A stretch of 26,027 bases of DNA from Takakia lepidozioides (GCA_030704615.1 JAKLZA010000044.1:1-26027); one strand, 5' to 3'. Shown: positions 1,121 through 26,027, numbered from the stretch's first letter. Program-made: numbers and translations. The notes: generated from the letters alone by a model not told the origin.

Positions 1121-4100
1121 TTACCGCCCCACACCAGTGGCAACATATATGTTTGATAGCGGCTTATAAGTTGCTGCGTCCTGTGAATCCCCCTTGAGGA
1201 GGGATTTTGCTGCACGTTCTGCTAGCTCTACATTCCCATGTACTCTGCAGGCACCAAGCAAGGCCCCCCAAACCGAAGCATCTGCTTCCATTGGCATTTT
1301 ATTGATAAAATCCTCTGCCTCATTCAATCGCCCCCCACGCCCAAGAAGATCCACCATGCAGCCAAAATGCTCCACTGTAGGACTGAGGCCATAATCTTGA
1401 CTCATGCATGCAAAATAGTGATAGCCTTCATTCACTAGCCCCACATAGCTACATGCACAGAGAAGAGAAACAAAGGTGATACCATCTGGCTTGAACCCTT
1501 CCTGTTGCATTTGATCAAATATTTGGAGGGCTTCTCTAGCACAGCCATGCTGACCATATCCGGCGATCATTGCATTCCATGAGACCACATTTCGTTCAGT
1601 CATACTATCAAACACTTGACGTGCGTCCTTTACGCTCCCACATTTGGCATACATGTCAACAAAGGTATTCTCCAAATTAATATATGAGGGTTCTCCAGAT
1701 TTAATGATGTCAGCATGGACTTCCTTGCCCTTTTCTAGAGCTCCGAGGCTGGCGCACACATTGAGAACACAAATAAATGTGACCTTGTCCGGGGTCATCC
1801 CTACATGTATCATTTGCTCATACATCTCCAAAGCCTCCCTACCACACCCATGCTGAGCATATCCTGCCATCATCACGTTCCACGAGACCACATCTGGTTC
1901 AGCCATATTGTCAAAGACTTCATGTGCATCCTTGACACTCCCGCAATTGGCATACATGTCAGCAAGGGCAGTCTCCAGGATGGTATCTGGCGCTGTTCCA
2001 ACTTTGATGATATCAGCATGGACATCCTTGCCCTTCTCCAGGACGCCTAGGCGCGCACACACATTGAGAATGCAAATGAAAGTGACTTTGTCTGGTGTCA
2101 CCCCTTCCCGTATCATTTGCTCATACATCGTGAAAGCTTCCCTGTCACACCCATGGTGAGCATATCCTGTGATCATTGTGCAGAATGAGACCACATCTCG
2201 TTTAGTCATAGTGTCAAACACTTGACGTGCATCCTTTATGCTCCCACATTTGGCATACATATCAACGAGGGCAGTCTCGAGAACGATATCTTGTGCAATT
2301 CCCGCTTTGACTATGTCACCATGAACCTCTTTGCCCTTTTCCAGGGCTCCTGAGCTGGCACACACATTGAGAGCACAAGTGAACACAATGCTGTCAGGCA
2401 TCACACCTTCCTGCATCAATTGCTTATACATCTCAAAAGCCTCTTCACTATGCCCATGCTGAGCATATCCTGTGATGATCGTGCTCCATGAGACTATATT
2501 TCGTTCAGCCATATTGTCAAAAACTTGACGTGAGTCTTCCATGCTACCACATTTGGCATACATGTTAACGAGAGTATTCTCCAAATTTACATATGACACA
2601 ATTCCAGCTTTGATGATGTCAGCATGGACCTCTTTGCCTTGATCCAGGGCTCCTAGATTGGCGCAGACATTGAGAACACAGAGATACGTCACCCTGTTGG
2701 GTGTCACTTGGTCGGAACGCATTTGCTCGTAGATACTTAAAGCCTCCTTATCAAATCCAAGCTGAGTATATCCAGAGATCATCGTGTTAAATGAGATCTC
2801 ATTTCGGTGAGCAATATTGTCGAACACTTGACAGGCATCCTTCATGCTCCTGCATTTGGCATACATGTCAACAAGGGTATTCTCCAAATTTACATACGGC
2901 GCAATTCCAGCTTTCATGATGTCAGCATGGACCTCTTTCCCCTTTTTGAGGGCTCCTAGGCTGGCACAAGCATTGAGAACACAAATGAATGTGACCCTAT
3001 CAGGTGTCACCCCATCTTGTTGCATTTGATCATAGGTCTCCAAAGCCTCCTTACCACACCCATGTTGAGCATAGCCTGTGATCATGGTGTTCCATGAGAC
3101 CACATTTCGTTGCGCCATATTGTTGAAAACTTGATATGCATTCTTCATGCTCCCACATTTAGCATACATGTCCACAAGGGTATTCCCCACATTTATATGT
3201 AACACAGTTCCAGATTTGATAATTTCAGCATGGACCTCTTGGCCCTTTTCAAGGACTCCTAGGCTGGCACACGCATTGAGAACACAGATGAATGTGACCC
3301 TGTCAGGTGGGACCTGTTCCTGTTGCATTTGCTCGTAGATCTGGAGAGCCTCCCTACCACACCCATGTTGTGCATATCCTGCGAGCATAGCATTCCATGA
3401 GACAACATTTCGTTTAGCCATATTGTCGAACACTTGATGTGCATCCTTCATGCTCTCACATTTGGCATACATGTCTATAAGAGTATTCTCCAGATTTATA
3501 TATGATACAATTCCAGATTTGATGATGTCAGCATGGACCTCTTTGCCCTTTCCCAGAGCTCCTAGGCTGGCACATGCTTTGAGAATGCAAATGAATGTGA
3601 CCTTGTTGGGTGGCACCCCTTTCAGTTCCATTACCTCATAGATCTGGAAAGCCTCTCTACAACACCCATGCTGGACATATCCTGCAACCATGGCATTCCA
3701 TGAAACCACATCTCGAGTAGTCATTTTGTCGAACACTTCATGCGCATCCATCATGCTCCCGCATTTGGCATAAAGGTCAACAAGGGCAGTCTCCAGGATG
3801 ATATCTGGTGCAACTCCAGCTTTGATGATGTTGGCATGGACTTCTTTTCCCTTTTCCAGGGCTCCTAGGCTTGCACATGCATTGAGAACACAAATGAATG
3901 TAACTTTGTCGGGTGTCTCCCCTTCATGTATCATTTGCTCATAGATCTCCAAAGCCTCCCTACCAAATCCATGCTTGGCATATGCTGCTATCATTATAGT
4001 CCATGTAAACACGTTCCGTTCAGGCATTTTGTCAAACACTTGGCGTGAATCTTCCACACTCCCGCACTTGGCATACATGTTCATAAGGGTGTTGAGTAGA

Positions 4101-4414
4101 AAAATATTTGGCTTGAATCCAGTTTGGATAATGTGGTCATGCACCTGCCTTCCCTCTGCTAGCCCTTTCATATCGATGCACTCCTGCAAGACATGGACGT
4201 AGGTCATGGAGCCGACTCGACTGCCTTGTTGATTTAAAATGTGCAGCGCCTCCTTCGGCTGTCCCAACTTACATAGTATCCTCATATCCCTAAAATTGCC
4301 AGAGGAGGTCTGGTTGACTCTGTCTCGTGGTCCTCTAGAAGCAGCGGAGGCACTGGAGGTTTGACTGCTAGTCTGATGTCCAACAAACAACTGTGCCTGA
4401 CTCAACCCTGCCAT
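1121..4414 (-). CDS. PLS-class pentatricopeptide repeat protein (1097 aa) ending in E1/truncated E2; organellar RNA-editing-factor type
   Basis: Intronless ORF with nine YAKCGS-type S motifs at a 101-aa/303-bp period (PLS triplets). Ends in P2-L2-S2 (EHFGCMVDLLGRGG) and E motifs (SVWGALLGACRVHG; AATYKPLSNIY). The Ser/Ala-rich N-terminus is compatible with a transit peptide. Confidence 0.95.
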   Translation of the reverse strand: MAGLSQAQLFVGHQTSSQTSSASAASRGPRDRVNQTSSGNFRDMRILCKLGQPKEALHILNQQGSRVGSMTYVHVLQECIDMKGLAEGRQVHDHIIQTGFKPNIFLLNTLMNMYAKCGSVEDSRQVFDKMPERNVFTWTIMIAAYAKHGFGREALEIYEQMIHEGETPDKVTFICVLNACASLGALEKGKEVHANIIKAGVAPDIILETALVDLYAKCGSMMDAHEVFDKMTTRDVVSWNAMVAGYVQHGCCREAFQIYEVMELKGVPPNKVTFICILKACASLGALGKGKEVHADIIKSGIVSYINLENTLIDMYAKCESMKDAHQVFDNMAKRNVVSWNAMLAGYAQHGCGREALQIYEQMQQEQVPPDRVTFICVLNACASLGVLEKGQEVHAEIIKSGTVLHINVGNTLVDMYAKCGSMKNAYQVFNNMAQRNVVSWNTMITGYAQHGCGKEALETYDQMQQDGVTPDRVTFICVLNACASLGALKKGKEVHADIMKAGIAPYVNLENTLVDMYAKCRSMKDACQVFDNIAHRNEISFNTMISGYTQLGFDKEALSIYEQMRSDQVTPNRVTYLCVLNVCANLGALDQGKEVHADIIKAGIVSYVNLENTLVNMYAKCGSMEDSRQVFDNMAERNIVSWSTIITGYAQHGHSEEAFEMYKQLMQEGVMPDSIVFTCALNVCASSGALEKGKEVHGDIVKAGIAQDIVLETALVDMYAKCGSIKDARQVFDTMTKRDVVSFCTMITGYAHHGCDREAFTMYEQMIREGVTPDKVTFICILNVCARLGVLEKGKDVHADIIKVGTAPDTILETALADMYANCGSVKDAHEVFDNMAEPDVVSWNVMMAGYAQHGCGREALEMYEQMIHVGMTPDKVTFICVLNVCASLGALEKGKEVHADIIKSGEPSYINLENTFVDMYAKCGSVKDARQVFDSMTERNVVSWNAMIAGYGQHGCAREALQIFDQMQQEGFKPDGITFVSLLCACSYVGLVNEGYHYFACMSQDYGLSPTVEHFGCMVDLLGRGGRLNEAEDFINKMPMEADASVWGALLGACRVHGNVELAERAAKSLLKGDSQDAATYKPLSNIYVATGVGR

Positions 4415-5067
4415 CCTGCATGACTGACTCTTGTTACAGACCTTTACACTCTTAACTCATGTACTTCATCCGGGTGGGGGGGGGTTTGGGGGTCCTAGAC
4501 ACCTCAAAAAAAGATCCCTCCATGAGGACACACATTATACTCCCAATTTTAAGGGTCAGGAAACACTCTAATTATCCAATCTCAAAATAAACTAGTACCA
4601 AGTCTCCTTGTTTGAGTTGGAATCCTTGAATCATTGTCAAAACAATACCCCAATAATTCGCAAACTGGGGCTGCATAGTGGACATCCACATTAGAATCAT
4701 CACTAGATTGTGGCTGATGTGGCTCTGCTATCATCCAAGGACGGTTTGACCAGCCCTCAATCCAGAGGACCTCCATTGTGTGCGAAGTCTGGATTTCTTG
4801 GACTTCCCTGTGACAACCACCACCCTGCAGTTGAGCAGCCATAGCAACCTTGCAAAGATCAGGCTACAAGCACCAAAGCTCCAAGCATCTTTCAATTCAC
4901 TCGGTAAGAGCTAACAGGGAGAAAGGCCCTTGTTGCTGAATCTTAATGGTAAAGCATAGGAGGCAATTTGTCTCTCTTTCTCTATTGGAAGCTTATCATC
5001 GATTGCTTAGAGTTTGATATGCCGTGTCGAGGCTATAACCAGAACCAAACATCAGTGCTACGCAGCA

Positions 5068-5924: not shown

Positions 5925-6268
5925 ATTGGAACTAACATTACCACGCCGAATCCAGCGCATGAAACCATATGGCATGCAATGTGATCGAGGGGACAAGCAT
6001 GAGCGCGCGCCGATGACGAGCAGCGATCGTGGCGTGATCGATCTGAGAGCGAGACTCGTGTGCTCCGACGCAGCGACCACGAAGAGAGAGACGCAACCGC
6101 CTATAGCCGGTCACCAGCCGGTGGCGAAGCGTGGGAACTCCACTTCTGGCCTGCTGCTGTCTGCGGACTGCTGTGAGAGAGTTTGTTGCATTCTTGGTGG
6201 AGGAGTCGGAAGAGTTAGTATCGGGAGAAGTAGAGGGATACTTAGGGTGATCGAAGGGGATCCCCGCC

Positions 6269-6856
6269 ATGGAGAATGTTGGTTGCAAGCAGGCCATTAT
6301 GATGGTTTCCATTATAGTACTTGTACTTCAGCAGAGAAGACTTACAGTGGGAGCTCAAGGTCCAGGTGCTGCACCGTCTCTTGCTGTAGGGCCGGTGGCT
6401 TCCTCGCCAGCATTGTCACCTACATTGAGGGGTGGAGGTGGAGCTCCAGTGTCAAGCAGAGGACCGTCCCCTGCAGGCCAACCTCGAGTGTCGTCAGGTC
6501 CAGTTCAGGCGCCATTGGCTACTAGTGCAGGTGCATCTCCTAGTTCACCTCCGGTTGGATCTCCAAATGCGGTACGCAACCCAGTATCCGTCACCCCCAC
6601 CGCAGCAACGCAAGCTATCTCTCCACCTGCTCCTCCCTCTACCTTTCAGCCCGTGTCAGGTCCAGCTTCGCCGATCGGCACAGCAGTAGCGGAGACATCA
6701 AAGAAGAGTAGTGGGTTAAGCGGAGGAGCAAAAGCAGGGGTAGCTGTTGTCGTGATCGGTGCGGCTTTGTCTGCAGCAGGCGGCATTTTCATCTACAAGA
6801 AGAGGCAAGAAAACCTTCAACGGGCGAGCTATGGTGGTCGGGGCTTTGAACTTTAA
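6269..6856 (+). CDS. Arabinogalactan-protein-like single-pass membrane protein (APAP1/AGP57C-like family)
   Basis: Hydrophobic N-terminal signal and a Pro/Ala/Ser/Thr-rich body with AP/SP/TP dipeptides. These are followed by SGLSGGAKAG, a transmembrane helix and YKKRQENLQRASYG, the recalled C-terminal signature of this family. Confidence 0.85.
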   Translation: MENVGCKQAIMMVSIIVLVLQQRRLTVGAQGPGAAPSLAVGPVASSPALSPTLRGGGGAPVSSRGPSPAGQPRVSSGPVQAPLATSAGASPSSPPVGSPNAVRNPVSVTPTAATQAISPPAPPSTFQPVSGPASPIGTAVAETSKKSSGLSGGAKAGVAVVVIGAALSAAGGIFIYKKRQENLQRASYGGRGFEL

Positions 6857-8755: not shown

Positions 8756-11700
8756 TCAACCATTTACCATGCCAGATTGGCATACAGGAATGTAATTCCT
8801 AGAGAACTCAAGCTGGCCTGAACATGCTGATGGCATGGTCATGGATGCCCGAGATATGACATTACTAGATGAGAGACGGTTAACTGCCATGCCTGCTCCG
8901 AGCACTCCATTCTCCTCTGCTTGGCAACCAAGCCACACACATGAAAGGCGAGCCCAAGCAGCTGAGGCACGAGCGACACTTACTGCACTCACAACACTCC
9001 GGGCTGCAATGAAGCGCATTCTATAGACCATCCCAAGCTCGTTCCACATCTCATTTCCGATGAGCCCTGCATCCTGGATGCCCTCATAGCCAGCCAGGTC
9101 TGTACTGCTCACAAAAACTGGTGAGTCCTCGTTGTTCGTATGGCCTCCATCATCACTGTCAGTGTTTCCCATATTATCAGTGGTTGAAAATGTCATCAGG
9201 GAGGACGGGGGTGATAATGCAGGCAACGATTGTGCCATGATTGCCCCATGCATTTGTCTACTATACTCCTGAACAGCCTGCATCAACAGAAGGGAAGACA
9301 CAAGTGTGTCCATGAATTATACTCATAAACGCTTCCCTGCAAACATGACACTTCAGGGCAGGACAACAGTAGACTAAGATACATGTGCATCTTAAGAGAA
9401 TGTACTCATAAGACGTTGTGTGCTGTAGCCTTGTGGCCATTGACCCCGCGCCCAGTTTGGGCGGAACACAAAGGGACAGAACCTACCTTTGTCAGGGGCT
9501 GACGCTGGTAGTAAGACTTACATTGGAATAAACAATTGATAAACAACTGCATCTTAAGAGAGAAAGATGGAAAGAAGGCAGCCTCGAGGGCATCAGCTAC
9601 ATACATGCACGAGTCAGAAAACAGAACATGAAGAAAGAATTTACCCGCCATTGAGCAGTTGCCAGTAGCACACGAGGTCTCCTTGCCCGCACATACTGCA
9701 GAGCATCTAGAGGTGCCATTCCCCTATGCTTCACCTGCCAAACACACCCACACCATCTGGCTTTGAGAACTATGACAAATTCCACCAATGTCAGGACAGT
9801 GCTAGAAGCACCACATCCTGTGAGCATTGATCTCTAGCAACAACAATATGCCAGATCCACTTCAGACTGGCTTTGGACACAGGTAAACTTCCATCAGCCT
9901 TCTGGTTTAACAACTAGTAACATGTTAAAAATCAGTACAAAGATGCAATGGAGAGAGTGCTGATGGGGACACTCTAGGCCGTCAACTCACCAAATAGCAA
10001 AGCACAACAGTGGTGCTACGGCCACGGCCTGCCTTGCAATGTACATAGGTAGTCTCCCTTCGCTGCACATGATCTGTTCAACAAATAAAACAGCTGCATT
10101 AGCCAAAAGGAAAGCACTGTGTTTCAAGGTCATACACCATCTTCGTAGGGCTGGACAATCCTCACACTCATAACAAATGAGTTGGCTACAAGACTCTTCG
10201 ATCCACAAAGACCTGTCAAAACCAGAAACCCCAGTTTTCAAGAAGTATGTGAACTAATCCAAGTCCCAAAGACAGAAAAAAGGCGGTGAATCACCTATGT
10301 CTCTCCTCAGGAGGATGTGGGATCGGGAACACTTTAGTCCTTGCATGGAAATTAGTCCTTACATGGAAACTTATATAAACATACTGGGAACCTCCTGGAC
10401 CCAAGTAATGCCAGTAAGTTTTTTGCACTGCTGTGCCTCCCCTGTGGGGTAGACACAATAAACTCGCTATGACAGAAAACTGAGTATCTCAAGAGAAGAA
10501 TTGCTTCAATCCGGGTGTATATGTCCCTTTATAGAGGGACCCCTCTAGACCGTTCATTCAGCATTCAAAAGGTACTACCTGTTCCTAGGTATTACCAAAA
10601 AGCTATACCCACATGTAACTTTCACATCCCAACATTATCCAATTTTCTATGAACCCCACACTTAACATTGAAAGATGAATATCTTTACTGGACAGATTAA
10701 TTTCCAATAGCCGCCCGGGAGAGCACCTGCCAGGCCTCTTGCAACTGTCTGTGATCTGCAATTCTATGTTGGTCTAAATTGTTCTGGTCAACTGGCTAGC
10801 TCCTTAAACTTCTGCAGAATAACATAAAGAAAGAAGCTAACCATGGATGAAGTCCACAGCCCGTCGAATATCTGAAAAGGATGGAGCAAAAAGATAGTCC
10901 CTCGTAGGAATCACCAAATGCTTGATTGCATGCTCCTGGCCAAATTGACAATGGGAATAGATCATTAGCTACCACATGACCAACATACAAAATTGTAAGA
11001 GATGTTTCATGGGCAATAGCCTGCTAACTTGATCTATAATGTACCCTTGAGGGCACAGTCCTCAGAGCCCACAGTACACACTAATCCTACTGGACTGGCT
11101 GTGAGCAACGAGAGAGAGAGACAGACACAGATTTGTGCTCACCAAACAAATGCTTTACAATCACAACAGCTGCGCTAACCTTCCAGTCCATGCAATCTCT
11201 TCTGATTTCAATGAAAATGGAATGCCGTCACCCCTCACAGCCAGGCCATCCCAGTTAGGAGAGAGAGCGCAGGGAGAAAAGGGCACCTGGTACATGGAGG
11301 TAGGTACAAGGGTTTCATAAGACTCGTTGAGGGTAACCACAGCATGCACACCAATGCCCTTGAGCCGAACTACATCCCCTGGGAAAGGGACAGCGCCCAG
11401 CAACAAATACTGCACACCAGTTCCAACACTAGAAAACCTGTCAAAAATCGGCGAAATGTAAAATATGCATATCCTGACCTTATGAATAACATCGGACACC
11501 TAATCGCACAAAAACACAGGTCTACAACCATCAATGGGCAACTATTCTTCAGTGTATACACAGAATCTGCCAGAGATGGGGGCAATGCCAATTGTTACCA
11601 CCCGAAACGGCCACACTAGTAGCCCTTAATCCCAGCTTGAAAGACAGATTTGATTAGCCAAACCTTCACTAAAATCAATAACTCAATCTGTAATATTTGT

Positions 11701-12259
11701 TAAGGACCTTCTTCTGGAGACCTTTCCTTCATATTAGAACTCAGTCAATAAGATGCTTGCTTATTACATCACATTCTGATGAAGACCATTCCTCCCACTC
11801 GATCACATCACCTATTGCTTTGCTATTCCTGACTTCTCCTCATGTCCAGGTAGAGGTCGGGAAATGCTCTTAGAGAAAGCATCGTTGACTAAGAGAATCT
11901 AGCATAATTACACAGAGGATGGGGAGTACCTCCTGCAGAAAAAGAAAACATATCATGAAAGCTTAAGAAATAACCTCTTCCAGCTTAAATTTTAAAGACT
12001 TGTGGTACTCTGTGATTCCAAAGACAAAGAAGAAGGTTACCTGATCGATTTGATCCCACCACCGAAACTCAGACTGAAGTTTGTTTCGGACAACATTGTA
12101 GAGTAGAGTAGGATAGAAAAGCACTCTTGCTCCAGCTCCCACCACCACTCTTTTAGCCACCTTCTCCATGTTCTTCAGATCTTCCCCTGCTTTTGACACT
12201 GGAACCAGCATCCATCCAGACTTTTCTTGGTCGGCCTCCACAGCCACTTCTTCAATCAT
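8756..12259 (-). CDS. DSP8: Dual-specificity / phosphatidylglycerophosphate phosphatase (DSP8/PTPMT1-like), 6 exons, 376 aa
   Basis: Exons 12259-12041, 11409-11287, 10935-10842, 10073-9991, 9734-9645 and 9277-8756, all with GT-AG introns and consistent phase (1131 nt). Motifs GAGARVLFYPTLLYNV, LLGAVPFP, HLVIPTRDYLFAPS and catalytic CX5R YVHCKAGRGRS. Confidence 0.93.
10316..10634 (-). mobile_element. Possible solo LTR in DSP8 intron 3
   Basis: TG...CA ends with a short imperfect inverted repeat (TGTGGGAT / ATCCCAACA) and a TATA-like CTATAAA on the minus strand near 10530. No matching target-site duplication (GAGGA vs TTATC). Confidence 0.35.
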
Positions 12260-13626
12260 CGCTTCAATCGCAGCCAGCTTTCCCTTGTAAATAAACCCCA
12301 GCTAGGACAGAATTTGATGCTTGGTCACACTACTCTGAAAGCTAGTTCCCCTAATCCGTATCCCAGTGTTTGGCTTCACATCAACCGCAATACCTCATAG
12401 GTTGCACTGCAATGACTGCTCGGGGTCTTTCACAGCACTCGACATATGTATCCAACCTCTATTGGCATCAGAACACGAAACGGATTGCTCTGGCATCTGT
12501 AGATAAAGTTTTGACGCTCACGATCTAAGTATAGGAAATGGGACGGAACTCACAAGGTATGTTCGAACATCGGATCTCTCCTTAGCCAATGTTGCTTATT
12601 TTTGCTACACCTACTCTATACACTAACTGAAGGGGACCTAAGCCGTGTTTGCTCTCCTTAGTAGATCTGGTATCCACCACTTGGACTTGAAATGCCTCGA
12701 AGAAAAGGAAAGGAGAGGTCTACTCCGCATGCATTAAGTACGTATGAGGATCTTGTGTACCTATGCTCCTAACTCATGCTGACATTGAAGGGTTTGTACA
12801 TGATATGCCCTTCAATTGGAACGTTCTGTATAATTTTCCACTGTTCTTGCGCACCCCTTGAAGCACAAAGATCTCACGCCAACCGCCCTGGCTTCGTATC
12901 AAATGTAACACAGTCACTTCCACACATAAAATACATCAATGAAACACCGGTGCTTAACGAAGCGGGCAGTGTCTCAGTTTTCCTTTGCAATCCACCATAC
13001 TCCGCGGTTCCGCAACAACTTCACAGGGGAATTCGATTGACGAAACCTAGATTCTAGGTTGAGCTTAGAGCCTTGAAGAGACGCCCGTCCCCAAGCCTGA
13101 AACTGAAAATAAAAACACGGGCACCAACCTCTGATTCCCCGATCGATGCACAACCTGTCAGATTACCAAAGGCTGGAGCTTCAAACCGATGCTTAAGAAT
13201 GAAAGAACGCTCTGCAATGAGATCCCGCACTCAAAAAACCGAAATCGAGGATGGACGCCAATTGCGCGACACTCGCACGCCAAATTGCTACCAAGACCTC
13301 CCAGATCACCCCAACATCAAAATCATGCCGCCACAAGCATGAAATCGTTGCACCAGCGACGATTTCCACACACAAATGCGCAAGAAAAACATGGATGGCA
13401 GACCGGGGACCGGAGACCCGCTAAAGGGTGCTCCCACGTTCTTGAGGCATGGCATGGCATGGCATCCCATGTCATGCCCCCATCCATGCCCCATAGATGT
13501 GTGCCCCCCAATTATCCAGCAGATAACGAGAGGTCTGTCCTGGGGATAAACAAAGAAACCCCCGTTTTAAACCAGCGGACAAACTTTTAACCGTAGGTTA
13601 CAGCGGGGCGTCCTTTGACTAGACCC

Positions 13627-19069: not shown

Positions 19070-19545
19070 CACAAGGGGGGCTAATTCCAAGGGGAAAACA
19101 CCAACCGACCAAGATGAATGGATTAAAATGCATGGGGAAAACCTCAAAGGGGAAAACCCCAAGGCCTATCACTCAAGGGGAAAAAATCACACCAAAGAAA
19201 AACCACGGGAAAAAACCACAGGGGTAACCCACCAAAGAAAAACTGCAGAAGGGAAAAAACCACAAGGGGAACCCACCAAAGAAAAACTGCAGAAGGGAAA
19301 AAACCACAAACCACAGAGGGGAAAATCCCACAGTGGAACCCATCAAAGAAAAACCACAGAAGGGAAAAGGAACACACGGGAAAAAACCCCACGGAAAATC
19401 CACGGGGTTTTTTTCCCAAAAGGTTGCAAGGGAAAGCCCACCAAATTCCCTCCGTTGCAAGTTCCTGTGACTTGTTCTTTTCAAGCACTCTAAAAGGGGA
19501 AAAATGTTATTTTTCCTTTAGGGAATGTGCCAAAAGCTCCTTGTG
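19070..19545. mobile_element. Non-autonomous CAC-terminated (CMC/EnSpm-like) element with internal repeat array
   Basis: Termini CACAAGG / CCTTGTG with flanks ACA / ATA (3 bp, one mismatch). The interior is packed with GGAAAAAACCAC-like units and a hairpin at 19378-19417. Confidence 0.5.
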
Positions 19546-19566
19546 ATATATATCAGAAAGGAAGTT

Positions 19567-19973
19567 AGGTGACTTGTTTCCAGTTTGTGACATGGGTGAG
19601 GACCTTAAGGAGGATCGGAAGGGCGTACCTACCGTTGGCACTAGAATAAATTTCACTTAGGGCAGGGAGAAAACCTCTGAATAATAAACAGATGCAAAGC
19701 GGTCAGGTAACTTTTTTCCAGTTTGTGACATGGGTCATGAGGACCTTAAGGAGGACCGGAAGGGCATACCTACCATTGGCACTAGAATCAATTTCAAACT
19801 CAGGGCAGGGAGAAAACCTCTGAAGAATAAACAGATGCAAAGCGGTTAGGTAACTTGTTTCCAGTTTGTGACATGGGTGAGGACCGGAAGGGCGTACCTA
19901 CGGTTGGCACTAGAATCAATTTCAAACTTAGGGCAAGGAGAAACCCTCTGAAGAATAAACAGATGCAAAGCGG
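19567..19973. repeat. Tandem repeat, three units of about 138, 143 and 126 bp
   Basis: Units start at 19567, 19705 and 19848 and share TTTCCAGTTTGTGACATGGGT...TTGGCACTAGAAT...AATAAACAGATGCAAAGCGG. Confidence 0.95.
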
Positions 19974-20430: not shown

Positions 20431-22983
20431 CTGAACTTCAAACTTGACAAGATTCTTTTCAACTCCTGCTCCGCTATCACTGGGCTCGAAACTCAACACT
20501 CATTGCCACCTCCTCGAGGGTCAGCTGTCCAGTGGACAGAGGACACCTTATAGACAGATCCTGCCATGGGCGAATCAGAAAAGCCATCACTTACAAGGCT
20601 TTTCACGCTTTGGGTTGGCACTGGTGCCACCCACCGGCACTTTATATTATAGGCCCCCATCTTCTTCCAGCCAATGTCCAGCTCCCGGAGTGCCTTTAAG
20701 ACCTCTGTCATTATCTCTTTTGGATCGGATTGGGACTGTGATTGATGGTTATATTCACAGACAGCCAAATCCAAAATGAAACACTTAGAAATGATGCTCA
20801 ATTCTTATAAACCAAACAGGCCATAAAGTTTCAACCTCAATTTTTTGGAACTAATATAACAACATGTTGGCCTGATCCACATGGTCCTTACTGGCATGTC
20901 ACCAGGTGTGAGTGATAGTGCACCCCTTGACCAGGATATTGACCACTTCTAGGACAATGACGAAGGATTATGTTATATTACCTTCCCAATTTTGTGGTGA
21001 CGAAAAGTCCAGGCTGTTGGGTGAAACATGGCCATCAAAGTGGCTCTCAGGACTCCCCATAGTGCGGCCATGGTATTACTAACCAACCACCAAGCTTATC
21101 TGCTGGAACCCTACTGTCTCTTAACGGTTACATGGTTCGGGTGTAGATAGGGAAATATTCCATCGCGCAGATAGCGACACTGCCTGTGCTTCAAGCGTGG
21201 GTCTTCAATTGAAATCCTAGACCAATAAATAGAACACCATCAACAAGTACATGAAATACAAGTACACTGGGAGAATCTACCCTTGCATTTGGTAAGTGAG
21301 ATACATGAGACAACGTCAAACGGTTTTAGGTCGACAATTACAGCCTCCTGGAATCAAACTGTCTTGCAGGTTTGGAGAAAACAGAGAGATAGTGGGAGTG
21401 GGAGGATATGAAGGAACCTGAAGACCCAAAGCCCACTTTCGCTCTGCGGCCACCCTATGTTGTAAAAGAGAAGGAGATGGACCCCGCCGATCCATACTAG
21501 CTGTATGCACTAGTACCTTCACTTAGGAAGGTCTCCCCAAGGGAGTTGAGCACATGAAATGCATGGGTAACATGGGGACCAGGTGTTCCTGCATGTCCAT
21601 CCTTCTCAAAACTGACATCCAGCTATCACCATAACCATCAAATTTCTTTAGACCTATCTTCCACTGACTAACATAAACATCATCACCTTCCCAAGGCTCA
21701 CGTAGGCACCCAACAAAACTGCAAAACCTGCCAAAAGCATATACAACCCAGCTTGAAAGGTTGTGTGACATCTCTGAAAGAGTACTACAAATTTTGAAGA
21801 GTCAAGGCAGGACATGTTGATGCAAAAGTTGTGCCAAACTAACAATAACTCGAATGCCCTGTATGCTTAGATTCCCTTTTGTTGCAGTGACCATGTATCA
21901 AGGACAGGCTGTCAGCCTCTTTGACAATAAGATAATTGCAGCCATAGATAGGCACAAGCTACTTACATGCCCCATGCCCATGCTAAATGTCCATAACGAG
22001 TTCCTCATTCAGTTCAACTGCAACTCACCTTGGCTTCTTCAAACTCAGCCCCAAGATAGCCATTAGATAGACGATGCCTGTTATCTAACATTAGATAATA
22101 TGCCACAGTTGCCTGCATCAGGCAAGCTAACTGTCAATGTTCCAACCTTTAATCCCAAAAAGATGCCAGTGCCCACTCGTCTGGTAAACTCCACACTTCA
22201 TACAGATGATCCAACTGCGAGCAAATATGGACCAGCAGACTGACCTGCTCAGGCATAATCAGAAATATACCAGCCTTTTCGACTACATCAGTCAAGCCAT
22301 GGAAATGGAACAACAGATAAAGATAAATCGAGAAATAGACCCTAGACTTAGTTGAGAAGCTAGTACAAGTAGCATGAGGAATCCATGGAAGCTGCTATTG
22401 ACAGGAGAAATATATAATCAAACTCAGATCTCAGTTTTGTACAACACCACAACAATCCACCGACTTGAAGCCATGTTATAAAGCCATGCCTACTGGAAAA
22501 AGTCAGTACATTATGTTGACACGATTAAGTCAGGAGTCAACAAGTTGAGATCGGTCGAACCCTAAAAGCACCACTTCCTCGAGAATGTCTTCATCGATCT
22601 GCACACATATTTCCGCACACGTCAACCACTACACATGTTCAAATTGTTTCTCATAAACCAGAACAAGAATTATGACTTCCACACATAGATAGACATGCAG
22701 GCTCTAGTATCATTTCTTTGCTCACCAGTGTTCTCTTCGAGCACAGATGAAATCAAGTTGATAGTAACTAGCCTGCTATGGATATGTGGACACTAGATGC
22801 AACATCTCAACTTCAGCTACTCTCAGAGAGAGTGTACCTGTTTAGCTTGTTGTATGGTATTAGGAGGAGGATAACGAGGCAAATGAGATTGAAACGAAGG
22901 ATGCTGGCAAACCTCGGGAATAATAATCCGCTTCATCGGGTCCACCAGTAGCATACGTGGAATCAGATCCCTTGCTCCCGGCA
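20431..22983 (-). pseudogene. SnRK1: SnRK1 catalytic subunit (KIN10-like) pseudogene, C-terminal exons
   Basis: Exons 22983-22838 (PGARDLIPRMLLVDPMKR), 22598-about 22510 (IDEDILEEVV, UBA, internal TGA), 22112-22029 (ATVAYYLMLDNR), 21588-21418 (ERKWALGLQ, internal TAA) and 20735-20431 (EIMTEVLKAL...KCRW...VKFEVQ, frameshift). The final exon was not found. Confidence 0.92.
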
Positions 22984-23022
22984 ACGTAAAACACTGGCAA
23001 AAAAAATTTCTTTGTAATTCAA

Positions 23023-23151
23023 GGAGCCTCCTTGGCCGCAAGGTTCCCCCGATTTACGGGAAGTACCCGCTTTTGGAAGGGTCCCCCAATTTGCGGGAAG
23101 TACCTTCCGCGCTTGGAAGGGTCCCCCGATTTGCGGGGGCAAGGAAGCTCC
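23023..23151. repeat. Left subterminal repeat array of the YR element
   Basis: Three AAGG(G/T)TCCCCC(G/A)ATTT(G/A)CGGG units (about 23040, 23077, 23117), bracketed by the inverted pair GGAGCCTCCTTG (23023-23034) / CAAGGAAGCTCC (23140-23151). Confidence 0.85.
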
Positions 23152-23348
23152 ACTACATTTATTTTAGGGTTAATCTTTTGAGAGGAATTTCTTTCAAAAA
23201 AATTCTTTCCAAGTTCCATCAATGTAGACAAAAAGGAACGCTAAGCAGAGAAACTAAAATCAATAGAAGGTATTTTTGGCTGTATTTGTGAGCGCCTCGT
23301 ACTGGCAACATTGTCTACAGTTCTAACTGACTCAGGCACATGGGATAA

Positions 23349-25540
23349 TCAGTTCCCCTTCAATTTCTTAAGAACATCAGCTGCGGTTCCGCTATCAAGC
23401 ACTTGCAGCGTGATGTTGCCGTGAACAACTCCAAAACTAGGTCCAATGTGTGTCACATTTCCTGTTGAGATAACCTGGTTATGACCTCCAAATATTCTCT
23501 CCAATTTATCGCTATTCTGGTTCAAGGCTTTGGTAATAGCATCTTGAGCTTCCTGACTCTCCCAGAATGAGTCGTCGTCGACTTGGGTAACATTACTCTT
23601 ACAAGGAGCCGTAGTAAGAGCCGATGATGAAGTAGAGTAGGATTTCTGGTTAACTTTGTCACTGACAGAGAGAATACCGCTTGAATGAATCGCTGGAACT
23701 TGAGAGTGCATAATATTTGAATTAACTGCTCCAGTAGATCCATTTCCCTGATAATCGCCATACTCAGATTCAATTACCCTTTTGTAATTCTCTTTCTCTT
23801 CTTCAAGAGCTTGTTCATATGAAAGAGGCTTTCCATTGCACACTTCACTAGATACAATTCGTTGCAGGGCACAATCTCTCACCATTTTGTTCATTTGATT
23901 GTATCTGCATACAAAAGAATAATAGCAATATATAAGTGTAAGATATTACCACCACAAAAGCAGGAAACATAGAGATCTAGATAGAATGTAACATACTTGC
24001 CATATGCCTTAGCACTCCTGTGACCTGTAAGCTCCATTCCATGTTCTTGTGGAACATAAGCCTCCTCCATCCGTGTCATTCCAACATCGCGACCAGTCTT
24101 GTTGGTAAGAACTTTGCCGGCTAATTCTGGCAGCTCCCTCATCATCTTGTTCGTGTAGGAGCGCAACGAATTTCTACATACAGGAATCTTCGAGAACCAG
24201 TCATCATCAGTAAACTTCCATTTCTGCCTTGGTGTAAGGAACATAGGGTGCGGCCCTAATTCCTGAGGAGTCCACGTAGGTCGTTTCTTGATCAGCAGTT
24301 TGTAGAGATCAATCACATGTGCATCCTGACAATCAACAGGTTTTCTATGATCTTCCGCACTGCAATGACTGATATCCAGTTGATAATTCTTGGAGATGCC
24401 CTGGCAAAACCTACAAAGAAAGTACAAAATGTCAAACCAATATAACTGTGAAGACCTGTACTTTGACTAAAAAGCATGTTAACATAATGGAATTCATGCA
24501 CTGATCATTGTATGTTGTGGCAAAACATGCAAAGAAAATACAAGATGTCAAGCCAACGTAAATCTGAAGGTATTTCCAAAAAGCATGAATTAACATAATG
24601 CAATTCGTGCACTCACCGCAGAACAACTCCCAACCGCGTCTCAACTAGAGTGAAATCCTCTTCGTCCACTTTGCGAAGCTCAGCGGAAGCTCTTACGAAG
24701 AAATTTCGAGTACACATGTAGCTAAACCGCATATTGAGACCAGATGGTGAGTCAGGCTGACAAAGTTTTTGGCTCAACATAAGGATTTCTTCCTGCTTAG
24801 TTAGCACATCGTTTTTTTTAACAACGCGTCCCAAACCTGCATTGCATGAGCGACGAACAGCCTTGTCCGCGGCCAGTTTCACTTGGCATATCTCGGATCA
24901 TTCATAATGTTGAAGGTGCAAGCTGGCGCTTCTGCAGACTCAACTATCCGCATCTCGCAACGTGCTCTGGGTACAAAGAGCCATCGCTCTTAGTCACCTC
25001 TAATATGAATAATGTTAGCATGTCTACCAACAATTTCACATCAGTTTCTGACAGGTCCGCCATGGATTTTTCTGTCGAGTAACCTTTATGCTCCCTCCAG
25101 CAGTCGAATGCTCGACGGGCCCATAACTCACCGTGCCTATTGCGACGCTGACCTCCTCCCAACACATTCTGCAGCTCACTCTCGTCAACCTCTCGGAAGC
25201 GCCTAACCAAATTAACATCACTTCTAGGCTGCGTTGAAGTACATGCTTGCGGATCCTTGTCATCACCGTTATTAGGCACATCATAATCATCATCAGGTAA
25301 TCTTCGACAAGAGGAATACACCTAACGACCTCAGAATTAGTGCTGGCTTCTACAAAATCTAGACTCCAAACCTGACTCATATGGTTGAGAGCTACAAGTA
25401 AGAGTAACTTCAGCTTCAGATATGATATCGTCAAAAGCTTGAGAGATATCAAGATCAAATGCAACAGAAGCATGATGTTCAACATGAATTCCCAAACAAA
25501 TTTTCTTCAGCGATGAATCTTGAAAATCCTCGACACTCAT
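23349..25540 (-). pseudogene. Tyrosine recombinase of DUF3504/Crypton type, intron-containing, frameshifted in its 5' half
   Basis: Motifs WARRAFDCW, FILEVTKSDGSLYP, GLGRVVKKNDVLTKQEE, PDSPSGL, NFFVRASAELR (catalytic R), SKN, KRP, TNKTGR (HxxR box) and TGHRSAKAYGK|Y (H and nucleophile Y). In-phase GT-AG introns at 24616-24411 and 23996-23905. Frame breaks near 25.35 kb, 24.96 kb and 24882. The start codon (25540) is tentative. Confidence 0.85.
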
Positions 25541-25840
25541 TGTTTACCAAAACGGCATGAAATAATTGCAACATGTCAATCAACCATTCTACGCCTGACG
25601 ACGCCATGTCGAAGATGAGGCACATATGATAATAGAATCCAAATTAAAAGCAATGCAAGGACGAGATCAGTATCTGCACGGGGACCTGACGTCTTCATCG
25701 CGACTGAGTGTAGAGAACACATGTAGGTTTAAAATAAGAAAGGGTGGAAAACGTGTCAACCCTAGAAAGAAATGGCCATCGAAAAGATGGCAGACTGGAA
25801 AGAAATGAGCGGGAAAGAAAAATTTCCCAGTTTTTCACGT

Positions 25841-25959
25841 TTGGGAAGGGTTGTTCCCACGGCCCTTCCTGAATTTTCGAGCACCCGGAACTCGGGCTCC
25901 GCCCTCGTTGCCGGTGCTCTCAAATTCAGGAAGGGCCTTGGGAACGACCCCTTCCCTAA
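25841..25959. repeat. About 120-bp foldback at the right terminus of the YR element
   Basis: Arms 25843-25876 and 25922-25956 (perfect 16-bp core GGCCCTTCCTGAATTT; two mismatches and one indel overall). Inner stems GAGCACC/GGTGCTC and GGGC-tcc-GCCC. Confidence 0.95.
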
Positions 25960-25960
25960 T

Positions 25961-25991
25961 ACAAATGGCTTGGTAGCGTGTAAATGCCACC
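25961..25991 (-). pseudogene. SnRK1: 5' part of the interrupted SnRK1 exon (GGIYTLPSHL)
   Basis: Acceptor TTTGTGCAG (26000-25992), then GGT GGC ATT TAC ACG CTA CCA AGC CAT TTG T. The rest of the kinase domain would lie beyond the window. Confidence 0.9.
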
Positions 25992-26027
25992 CTGCACAAA
26001 CAGGCACCCGCCATCTTCACCCCGCCA

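What the first reader, a model, noticed from the sequence alone, without database searches (positions are those of the whole stretch)
22984..25962. Complete tyrosine-recombinase-only transposon in a land-plant genome, with both ends mapped to the base
Seen: a 2975-bp insert splits the SnRK1 motif GGIYTLPSHL|SPGARD. The empty site reconstructs in frame as CAT TTG TTG CCG GGA, where TCG>TTG is one CpG-type change. The insert carries one spliced gene with the R...(K)xxR...H...Y tyrosine recombinase signature, no recognisable RT, gag, DDE or HUH domain, and no inverted repeats at the extreme termini. Established: YR-only DNA transposons are Cryptons, described from fungi, animals, stramenopiles and some algae, and DUF3504 is the Crypton-derived YR domain of ZMYM2-4/KCTD1/QRICH1. 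Inference: a Crypton-like family has been mobile in this plant lineage. To my knowledge this is little described in land plants, but I cannot verify that here.
Basis: partly seen in the sequence, partly recalled or inferred. Interest (0 to 1): 0.9.

Follow-up and report, generated by a model that had tools for sequence, protein, structure and literature searches.

The report
Land-plant recombinase transposon with self-pairing ends
This is a full-length but broken copy of a small jumping gene, in a likely moss genome, that carries the gene of a predicted Cre-like DNA-cutting enzyme (a kind of element I found no description of in land plants), and its two ends match one internal stretch side by side, so it likely moves by copying out one DNA strand as a circle.

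Summary
Real transposon; this copy is dead. Public DNA contigs show the empty SnRK1 site, other copies with the same ends, and much deeper ~314-bp non-autonomous derivatives. The single gene is a DUF3504-related tyrosine recombinase with two introns. Its catalytic half is open, but the 5' half has at least three frame-breaking deletions. Relatives occur in liverworts, a moss, a lycophyte and ferns, share Lys in place of the HxxR His, and one models as a Cre fold. New here: a 55-bp-arm hairpin opens the element, and the 13 nt behind it complement the far end, so the joined ends form one stem like a DIRS internal complementary region. Distant families share the terminal motifs. Likely mechanism: single-strand copy-out circle, then recombinase insertion. 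I found no paper on land-plant Cryptons; Repbase/Dfam unchecked. This scan noted fossil remnants of the family on two other genomes before. New variant of the Crypton kind.

The parts
22985..25962 (-). Whole element, 2978 bp counting the single C (G on the gene strand) present at both ends; one copy of that base belongs to the target
   Evidence: Loose ends of other copies pile before 22985 (3 contigs each in X3 and X4) and behind 25962 (3 contigs in X3, 2 in X4); empty-site joint 22982->25961
25843..25955 (.). 5'-terminal hairpin, 55-nt arms, 82% complementary, starting 7 nt inside the end; holds 4 CCCTTCC heptamers
   Evidence: I1; fold z = -9.8, 0 of 200 shuffles
25827..25839 (+). Internal complementary site ('splint'): inverted copy (11 of 13 nt) of the far terminus, directly behind the hairpin; pairing extends to about 25816
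   Evidence: no hit with 2 or fewer mismatches in the 22,984 bp outside, both strands; the true end is the best partner among 25,835 windows, narrowly
22985..23011 (-). 3'-terminal motif (T-run, then AGTG and the terminal G), conserved in distant families
   Evidence: Best matches among 169,988 positions of 14 loci are L005/L006 and L007, where L006-L007 homology ends
23040..23137 (.). Subterminal 40-bp tandem repeats (2.5 copies) with small stems and 2 CCCTTCC heptamers; candidate recombinase-binding sites
   Evidence: 6 of the 11 heptamers in the window lie in the two element ends
24617..25540 (-). YR gene exon 1 (acidic N-terminus, core-binding domain, first catalytic Arg); broken at 24882, about 24960-24968, 25299 and about 25365-25375; start codon uncertain
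   Evidence: tblastn of homologues, other copies, translation
24411..24616 (-). Intron A, GT-AG, phase 2, with an internal ~116-bp duplication
   Evidence: (D2, D4); homologues run straight across
23997..24410 (-). YR gene exon 2: catalytic Lys, NKTGR (KxxR), TGH
   Evidence: Pfam DUF3504 E = 2e-4, below the curated cut-off; 146 homologues at E <= 1e-3
23905..23996 (-). Intron B, GT-AG, phase 2, in the codon before the catalytic Tyr
   Evidence: same position in 7 of 9 related loci printed
23349..23904 (-). YR gene exon 3: catalytic Tyr, conserved helix, low-complexity tail, stop
20493..22984 (-). Target, downstream part: decayed SnRK1 kinase copy (stop at 22531; adenylate-sensor exon at 20493-20804)
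25963..26027 (-). Target, upstream part: start of the interrupted SnRK1 exon (GGIYTLPSHL) and intron

Best explanation
This is a full-length, frameshifted copy of a tyrosine-recombinase-only DNA transposon of a Crypton-like lineage of seed-free land plants, which likely moves by peeling off one DNA strand whose two ends are predicted to be held together on an internal complementary stretch, would be joined into a circle by the recombinase, and would then be inserted at a single shared G:C pair. SHOWN: the ends, the one-base overlap, empty sites, multiple copies, internally deleted derivatives that keep both ends, the YR gene with introns and its breaks, the hairpin, and the complementarity of nt 124-136 to the far end. 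INFERRED: (1) an intact copy elsewhere supplies the recombinase in trans; (2) the CCCTTCC repeats at both ends are its binding sites; (3) a displaced single strand folds so that the 3' end and the 5' start lie side by side on the splint, with the shared G paired in the stem, as in the DIRS ICR model; (4) strand transfer by the recombinase closes the circle and later inserts it; (5) the donor strand is re-synthesised, so copy number rises. My odds are about 0.92 for the identity of the element and about 0.5 for the single-strand splint mechanism.
For: Mobility: empty-site joints, loose ends at both termini, and derivatives joining 23138->25807 at depth 292-864 against about 35 for the window-type contig, also seen in a second study's run. 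All 5 internal-deletion joints listed keep at least 143 nt of the hairpin end, splint included, and at least 53 nt of the far end. Enzyme: DUF3504 hits in 14 of 27 homologues scanned, 4 above the cut-off; a family profile finds QRICH1 at E = 2.5e-7; the model of intact member P0107 matches Cre (Foldseek E = 2e-8; VIA Z 18.3, rmsd 5.1, 293 aligned). DNA-only route: introns kept, intron B shared by 7 of 9 loci printed, no joint that skips either intron, no Pfam family in 32 frames scanned from 6 related loci. Splint: the joined ends fold into one stem at -64.3 kcal/mol against -55.6 +/- 1.3 with a shuffled 3' end, 0 of 300; the true end ranks first as partner in 26 kb. Conservation: L003/L004 open with GTATAGGG plus a perfect 43-bp hairpin upstream of their YR; L006 has GTATAGG plus a decayed hairpin, the same 3' motif, and a junction fold beaten by 2 of 200 shuffles.
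Against: No circle, single-stranded form, transcript or intact copy of this family was seen. The window's own exon modelled alone gives only weak fold matches (best Foldseek E = 0.096; best Z 4.3); the Cre fold comes from a homologue 30-32% identical over that exon. In the end-position control the true end ranked 4th of 270 in the window and 6th of 465 in L006 by total fold energy. By duplex energy the window's margin is thin (-12.4 against -12.1), and the L006 end (-9.5) is not among its six best sites. No 3' end matching the L004 splint was found in L004. The same inverted sites could simply be double-stranded binding sites. The hairpin test in related loci was made after seeing the data.
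Confidence: 0.55

Rival explanations
1. Same element, but the classical Crypton route: double-stranded excision by the recombinase, a circle, and re-integration at a short matching target. The hairpin and inverted site are duplex binding or regulatory sites, not a single-strand splint.
For: This is the standing model (PMC3212892, PMC13565253 passages), and clean excisions were seen for CryptonF-1_cRei (PMC9977147 passage). The second empty form carrying the window's G>A change could be an excision product. Repeated CCCTTCC heptamers fit duplex binding.
Against: Only one base is shared by the ends, not 4-6. The hairpin is kept as structure while its sequence differs between families. The splint lies exactly in register with the junction. 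Cut-out alone does not explain the deep non-autonomous derivatives.
Confidence: 0.33
2. A Helitron2/Helentron-like element moved in trans by an HUH RepHel enzyme, carrying the YR gene as cargo.
For: On the + strand the layout (terminal repeat, subterminal inverted copy, hairpin, end; no TSD) resembles the asymmetric terminal inverted repeats and hairpins described for the second Helitron type (PMC8969392 passage).
Against: That type has a 5' T and inserts before T; here the ends are C/G. The same end motifs flank YR genes only about 40-50% identical in other loci, as expected of the element's own transposase. Catalytic residues are conserved family-wide. No HUH frame was found.
Confidence: 0.07
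3. An internal deletion of a DIRS-like retrotransposon that kept its YR and ICR and lost gag and RT.
For: An internal region complementary to both joined termini is the DIRS1 hallmark (PMC3266345 passages).
Against: Spliceosomal introns are kept and shared across families. The YR is DUF3504-related. There is no ITR pair, the complementary region is at the 5' end, the overlap is 1 bp not 3, and no RT was found in the element or the related loci scanned.
Confidence: 0.04

Closest known systems
CryptonA elements (Kojima and Jurka 2011, PMC3212892) and their fungal subfamily Glomhopper (PMC13465315)
   Same: Single DUF3504-related YR gene, introns, no TIR, no C-terminal GCR1_C domain, abundant non-autonomous derivatives sharing both ends, no clear terminal direct repeat.
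   Different: Land-plant hosts; Lys instead of His in the HxxR motif; a separate clade from the His-type DUF3504 proteins in my tree (99/96); ends mapped to the base with a 1-bp overlap, a long 5' hairpin and an internal complementary site. Glomhopper ends were not identified in the section I read.
CryptonF-1_cRei of Chlamydomonas (PMC9977147)
   Same: YR-only DNA element in a green-lineage host; insertion through a short match between one terminus and the target; copy number rises.
   Different: 5-bp CAYCG target against a single shared base here; CryptonF class (GCR1_C domain) rather than DUF3504 type; alga, not land plant.
DIRS1-like retrotransposons (PMC3266345)
   Same: Internal region complementary to the joined termini, overlapping at the circle junction; YR insertion without TSD.
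   Different: No gag, RT or MT; introns kept; no ITR pair; complementary region at the 5' end; 1-bp rather than 3-bp junction.
Helitron2/Helentron (PMC8969392 passage)
   Same: Asymmetric terminal inverted repeat plus terminal hairpin, no TSD.
   Different: Encodes a YR, not RepHel; ends in C/G, not T; the hairpin is about 113 nt long.
Integron attC sites with IntI (recalled, not from a call)
   Same: A YR acting on a folded single strand, with the crossover in the base of an imperfect stem that has unpaired bases.
   Different: Bacterial cassette system; no closer structural match than Cre or XerA (Z 15.4 against 18.3 and 17.3).

Membership tests
Crypton (YR-only DNA transposons) | Encodes a tyrosine recombinase | tested here: met
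   Motifs; Cre fold of member P0107; Atlas feature hits to Phage_integrase and DUF3504 clusters at 0.91-0.93
Crypton (YR-only DNA transposons) | No RT, gag, DDE or HUH gene | tested here: met
   0 such families in 26 frames overlapping the element and 0 families in 32 of 48 long frames from 6 related loci
Crypton (YR-only DNA transposons) | No TIRs or long direct repeats at the termini | tested here: met
   only a 3-bp GTA/TAC match inside the shared C
Crypton (YR-only DNA transposons) | 4-6-bp terminal direct repeats (CryptonF, CryptonS) | tested here: not met
   One base is shared across copies. Animal CryptonA/I also lack terminal repeats (PMC3212892 section 8), so this excludes F and S only
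Crypton (YR-only DNA transposons) | Interspersed copies with common ends and empty sites | tested here: met
   tables 5 and 7; one sample of organism A plus one derivative joint in a second study
Crypton (YR-only DNA transposons) | Circular DNA intermediate | not testable with these tools
   Only assembled contigs were available; no end-to-end joint is listed
CryptonA / Glomhopper | DUF3504 (PF12012) domain | tested here: inconclusive
   Window exon 21.8 bits, below the cut-off of 29.7; 2 close relatives just pass (31.7, 30.1 bits)
CryptonA / Glomhopper | R-H-R-Y tetrad | tested here: not met
   Lys replaces the His: NKTGR in the window; 48 Lys-type, 13 His-type and 85 without a scorable motif among 146 hits. 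Lys at this place in topoisomerase IB and telomere resolvases is recalled, not tested
CryptonA / Glomhopper | Nests inside the CryptonA clade | tested here: inconclusive
   31 plant-type rows split from 13 His-type or animal rows at 99/96; unrooted, no named CryptonA or Glomhopper sequence on hand
DIRS1-like retrotransposons | gag, RT/RH and MT genes | tested here: not met
DIRS1-like retrotransposons | Internal region complementary to the joined termini | tested here: met
   (at the 5' end, 1-bp overlap)
DIRS1-like retrotransposons | Inverted terminal repeats at both ends | tested here: not met
Helitron2 / Helentron | Asymmetric terminal inverted repeat plus hairpin | tested here: met
Helitron2 / Helentron | RepHel gene; 5' T; insertion before T | tested here: not met
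   features as given in PMC8969392

The most novel reading that the evidence does not exclude
An undescribed group of tyrosine-recombinase DNA transposons, spread through mosses, liverworts, lycophytes and ferns and possibly as old as land plants, transposes replicatively: a Lys-type (topoisomerase IB-like) recombinase circularises one peeled-off strand on a built-in splint. That would supply the missing copy-gain mechanism for Cryptons and a DNA-only forerunner of the DIRS ICR design.
Probability: 0.38. Interest if true: 0.88.

Novelty: new variant of a known kind. Interest (0 to 1): 0.74.

Why it matters
A 2022 review of land-plant transposons does not contain the word Crypton and excludes DIRS from land plants (PMC9033089, passages), so a recombinase-only family that has multiplied in a moss-like genome and has relatives across seed-free plants fills a gap in plant TE catalogues, where these genes now sit as 'hypothetical proteins'. 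How Cryptons move has not been shown experimentally (PMC13565253), and why their copy number rises is open (PMC9977147). Base-exact ends, a ~314-bp minimal derivative and a predicted end-pairing splint make that question directly testable. A compact plant recombinase that seems to need only one shared base at the target could also be of use in genome engineering.

Tried and rejected
No whole genome is held for the window, so copy number and intact copies could not be counted; contig depth is not a copy number. A word-index homologue search with exon 2 found nothing, and one with alignment A1 returned only 6 hits; the full HMMER scan was needed. No RNA holder listed; nothing laid from the guessed RNA run X6. 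No other copy of the ends lies elsewhere in the window and the exact 15-nt 5' end is in none of the 14 loci. No Rfam family. The exon-only model gave no clear fold match. Alternative splicing to rescue exon 1 is rejected, because other copies carry the missing bases. The loose end at 23007 in X5 looks like sequencing adapter (recalled) and was set aside. The best match to the L004 splint inside L004 (6977-6990) lies in coding sequence with homology running on, and was rejected as an end; the top site in L002 (near 1296) is an unverified lead. Literature searches were uninformative because non-Crypton papers filled the lists.

Full report
OBSERVATION. The minus strand reads GGIYTLPSHL up to 25963 and LPGARDLIPRMLLVDPMKR from 22984, an interrupted SnRK1 exon. 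No genome is held, so I used public runs. Five of 10 listed runs hold the stretch: four from one sample of organism A (share 0.57-0.60) and one plant metagenome from a second study (0.06). Laying X1, X3, X4 and X5 gave four results. (i) An empty site joins 22982 to 25961 with one G between, reading H-L-S-P-G, at depth 126 (X3) and 189 (X4). A second empty form in X1, X3 and X4 already has the G>A change. (ii) Loose ends from other insertion sites pile before 22985 and behind 25962; 20 of 69 loose-end rows were shown. The C at each end is constant, while the neighbouring base varies. The element is therefore 22985-25962 with one shared C, a net insertion of 2977 bp. (iii) Summed depth over the ends is roughly 1000-2400 against about 60-440 inside. 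(iv) Five joints skip the interior; the deepest, 23138->25807 (a 314-bp element), has depth 292-864 against about 35 for the window-type contig and also occurs in X5. Depth is not a copy number, but the derivatives clearly outnumber the long copies. The flank contigs differ from the window at 10-14 of about 455 bases and lack its stop at 22531, so the empty sites are probably paralogues, and the element landed in a decayed SnRK1 duplicate.

THE GENE. Introns lie at 24616-24411 and 23996-23905, both GT-AG and phase 2. Spliced, the frame is open for 411 codons from 24882 to the stop at 23349 and carries R (FFVR), K (ISKN), NKTGR, TGH and the Tyr nine residues on. The 5' half is broken. Other copies have an extra base at 24882 and 10 more bases at 25299, homologues show about 13 residues missing near 24965, and one more frame change near 25365-25375 is unresolved. 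This copy cannot make a full-length enzyme. No RT, gag, DDE or HUH family was found in 26 frames overlapping the element.

RELATIVES AND HOST. Exon 2 hits Pfam DUF3504 below the cut-off (E = 2e-4) and 146 of 1.84 billion representatives at E <= 1e-3. I looked up 30 of the 146. Eleven carry an organism name, all seed-free land plants: Riccia sorocarpa (3), R. fluitans (3), Adiantum (3), Ceratodon (1), Selaginella (1). DUF3504 is hit by 14 of 27 homologues scanned, 4 above the cut-off. A model of intact member P0107 matches Cre (E = 2e-8; Z 18.3, rmsd 5.1, 293 aligned); the window's exon alone gives only weak matches. Of the 146 hits, 48 have NKxxR, 13 NHxxR and 85 no scorable motif. A 44-row tree (43 chosen proteins plus the window; short fragments not included) splits 31 plant-type rows from 13 His-type or animal rows at 99/96 and places the window in a 24-row group with Riccia and Ceratodon at 100/99. 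The tree is unrooted and holds no named CryptonA or Glomhopper, so origin and age are not shown. A host phosphatase exon has Sphagnum (75%) and Physcomitrium (69%) as its best named hits, so the host is likely a moss.

END ARCHITECTURE. The gene-strand 5' end is GTATTA followed by a hairpin with 55-nt arms (z = -9.8). Directly behind it, nt 124-136 (window 25827-25839) are the inverted complement of the last 13 nt of the element at 11 of 13 positions; no such match occurs in the 22,984 bp outside. Joined in silico, the ends form one continuous stem with the shared G paired in it: -64.3 kcal/mol against -55.6 +/- 1.3 for shuffled 3' ends, 0 of 300. By duplex energy the true end is the best partner of this site among 25,835 windows, by a thin margin; by total fold energy it ranked 4th of 270 positions. 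All five derivative joints keep this site. Six of the 11 CCCTTCC heptamers in the window lie in the two ends. Fourteen metagenome loci with related YR genes were fetched. L003/L004 (one locus) have GTATAGGG and a perfect 43-bp hairpin of different sequence upstream of the YR. The best matches to the window's 3' terminal 27-mer among 169,988 positions are L005/L006 and L007, on the gene strand, where their mutual homology ends. L006 also has GTATAGG and a decayed hairpin at 1639; its junction fold is beaten by 2 of 200 shuffles, but its end is not a top duplex partner. Most other loci show no recognisable ends. Intron B is shared by 7 of 9 loci printed, and 32 of 48 long frames from six loci were scanned with no Pfam hit.

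MECHANISM. An internal stretch complementary to the joined termini is how DIRS1-like elements are thought to circularise (PMC3266345, passages), and asymmetric inverted repeats with a hairpin mark one Helitron type (PMC8969392, passages). Both are thought to pass through single strands (recalled). Here the introns are kept and no RT or RepHel is present, so I infer that the recombinase, supplied in trans, frees one DNA strand, the ends meet on the splint, the circle closes at the shared G and is inserted at a G:C pair, and the donor is restored. The rival is ordinary double-stranded excision. My odds: identity as a YR-only Crypton-like transposon 0.92; single-strand splint route about 0.5. No circle, transcript or intact copy was observed.

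LITERATURE. Ten searches (16 and 40 uninformative; only 40 of 69 and 40 of 89 papers listed) showed no title or abstract opening on Cryptons in land plants. What I saw: PMC3212892, passages and sections 5 and 8 (hosts: fungi, animals, stramenopiles); PMC13465315, passages and results sections (DUF3504 in Opisthokonta; 'Viridiplantae' absent; ends not identified); passages only of PMC9977147, PMC11630846, PMC13565253, PMC8969392, PMC12130899, PMC9033089, PMC6681497, PMC3537659, PMC4157794, PMC3266345 and three preprints. Two earlier notes of this scan describe fossil remnants of the same family on other genomes; they are unchecked AI notes, not support.

VERDICT. A real, once-mobile YR-only transposon family; this copy is full-length but dead. 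It works like a Crypton. I do not file it as CryptonA because the His of the tetrad is replaced and it forms a separate group. New variant of a known kind, with a newly seen, testable end design. Interest 0.74.

Noticed in passing
window 20493-22984 and 25963-26027 (-): The SnRK1 copy hit by the element is decayed, and contigs over it run about five times deeper than the window-type element contig, with two different empty forms; this suggests several SnRK1 paralogues or captured fragments in this genome.
   Followed up: partly
window 1121-4456 (-): Single-frame 1111-aa PPR protein with an E motif and no DYW hit, typical of land-plant RNA-editing factors.
   Followed up: partly
window 11161-12301 (-): Exons of a PTPMT1-like dual-specificity phosphatase; best named hits are mosses.
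   Followed up: partly
window 19134-19973: Unexplained repeat block: 15-, 44- and 128-bp tandem units; three CCCTTCC heptamers, the motif repeated in the element's ends, lie in the 128-bp array. No BLAST similarity to the element.
   Followed up: no
window 24402-24613: Intron A contains a ~116-bp internal duplication that includes an acceptor-like copy (D2 and D4).
   Followed up: no
L006:1639-7617: Candidate full-length ~6-kb element of another family with the same 5' motif, hairpin and 3' motif; about 3.4 kb between hairpin and YR is unexplained.
   Followed up: partly
L010:6563-6662: Near-perfect ~100-nt hairpin downstream of a related YR gene, absent from the window's layout.
   Followed up: no
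L002:1284-1301: Best partner in L002 of the sequence behind the L004 hairpin; possible 3' end of that family.
   Followed up: partly
window 6251-6856 (+): 201-aa Pro/Ser/Ala-rich frame with a hydrophobic C-terminal stretch, no clear Pfam family.
   Followed up: no
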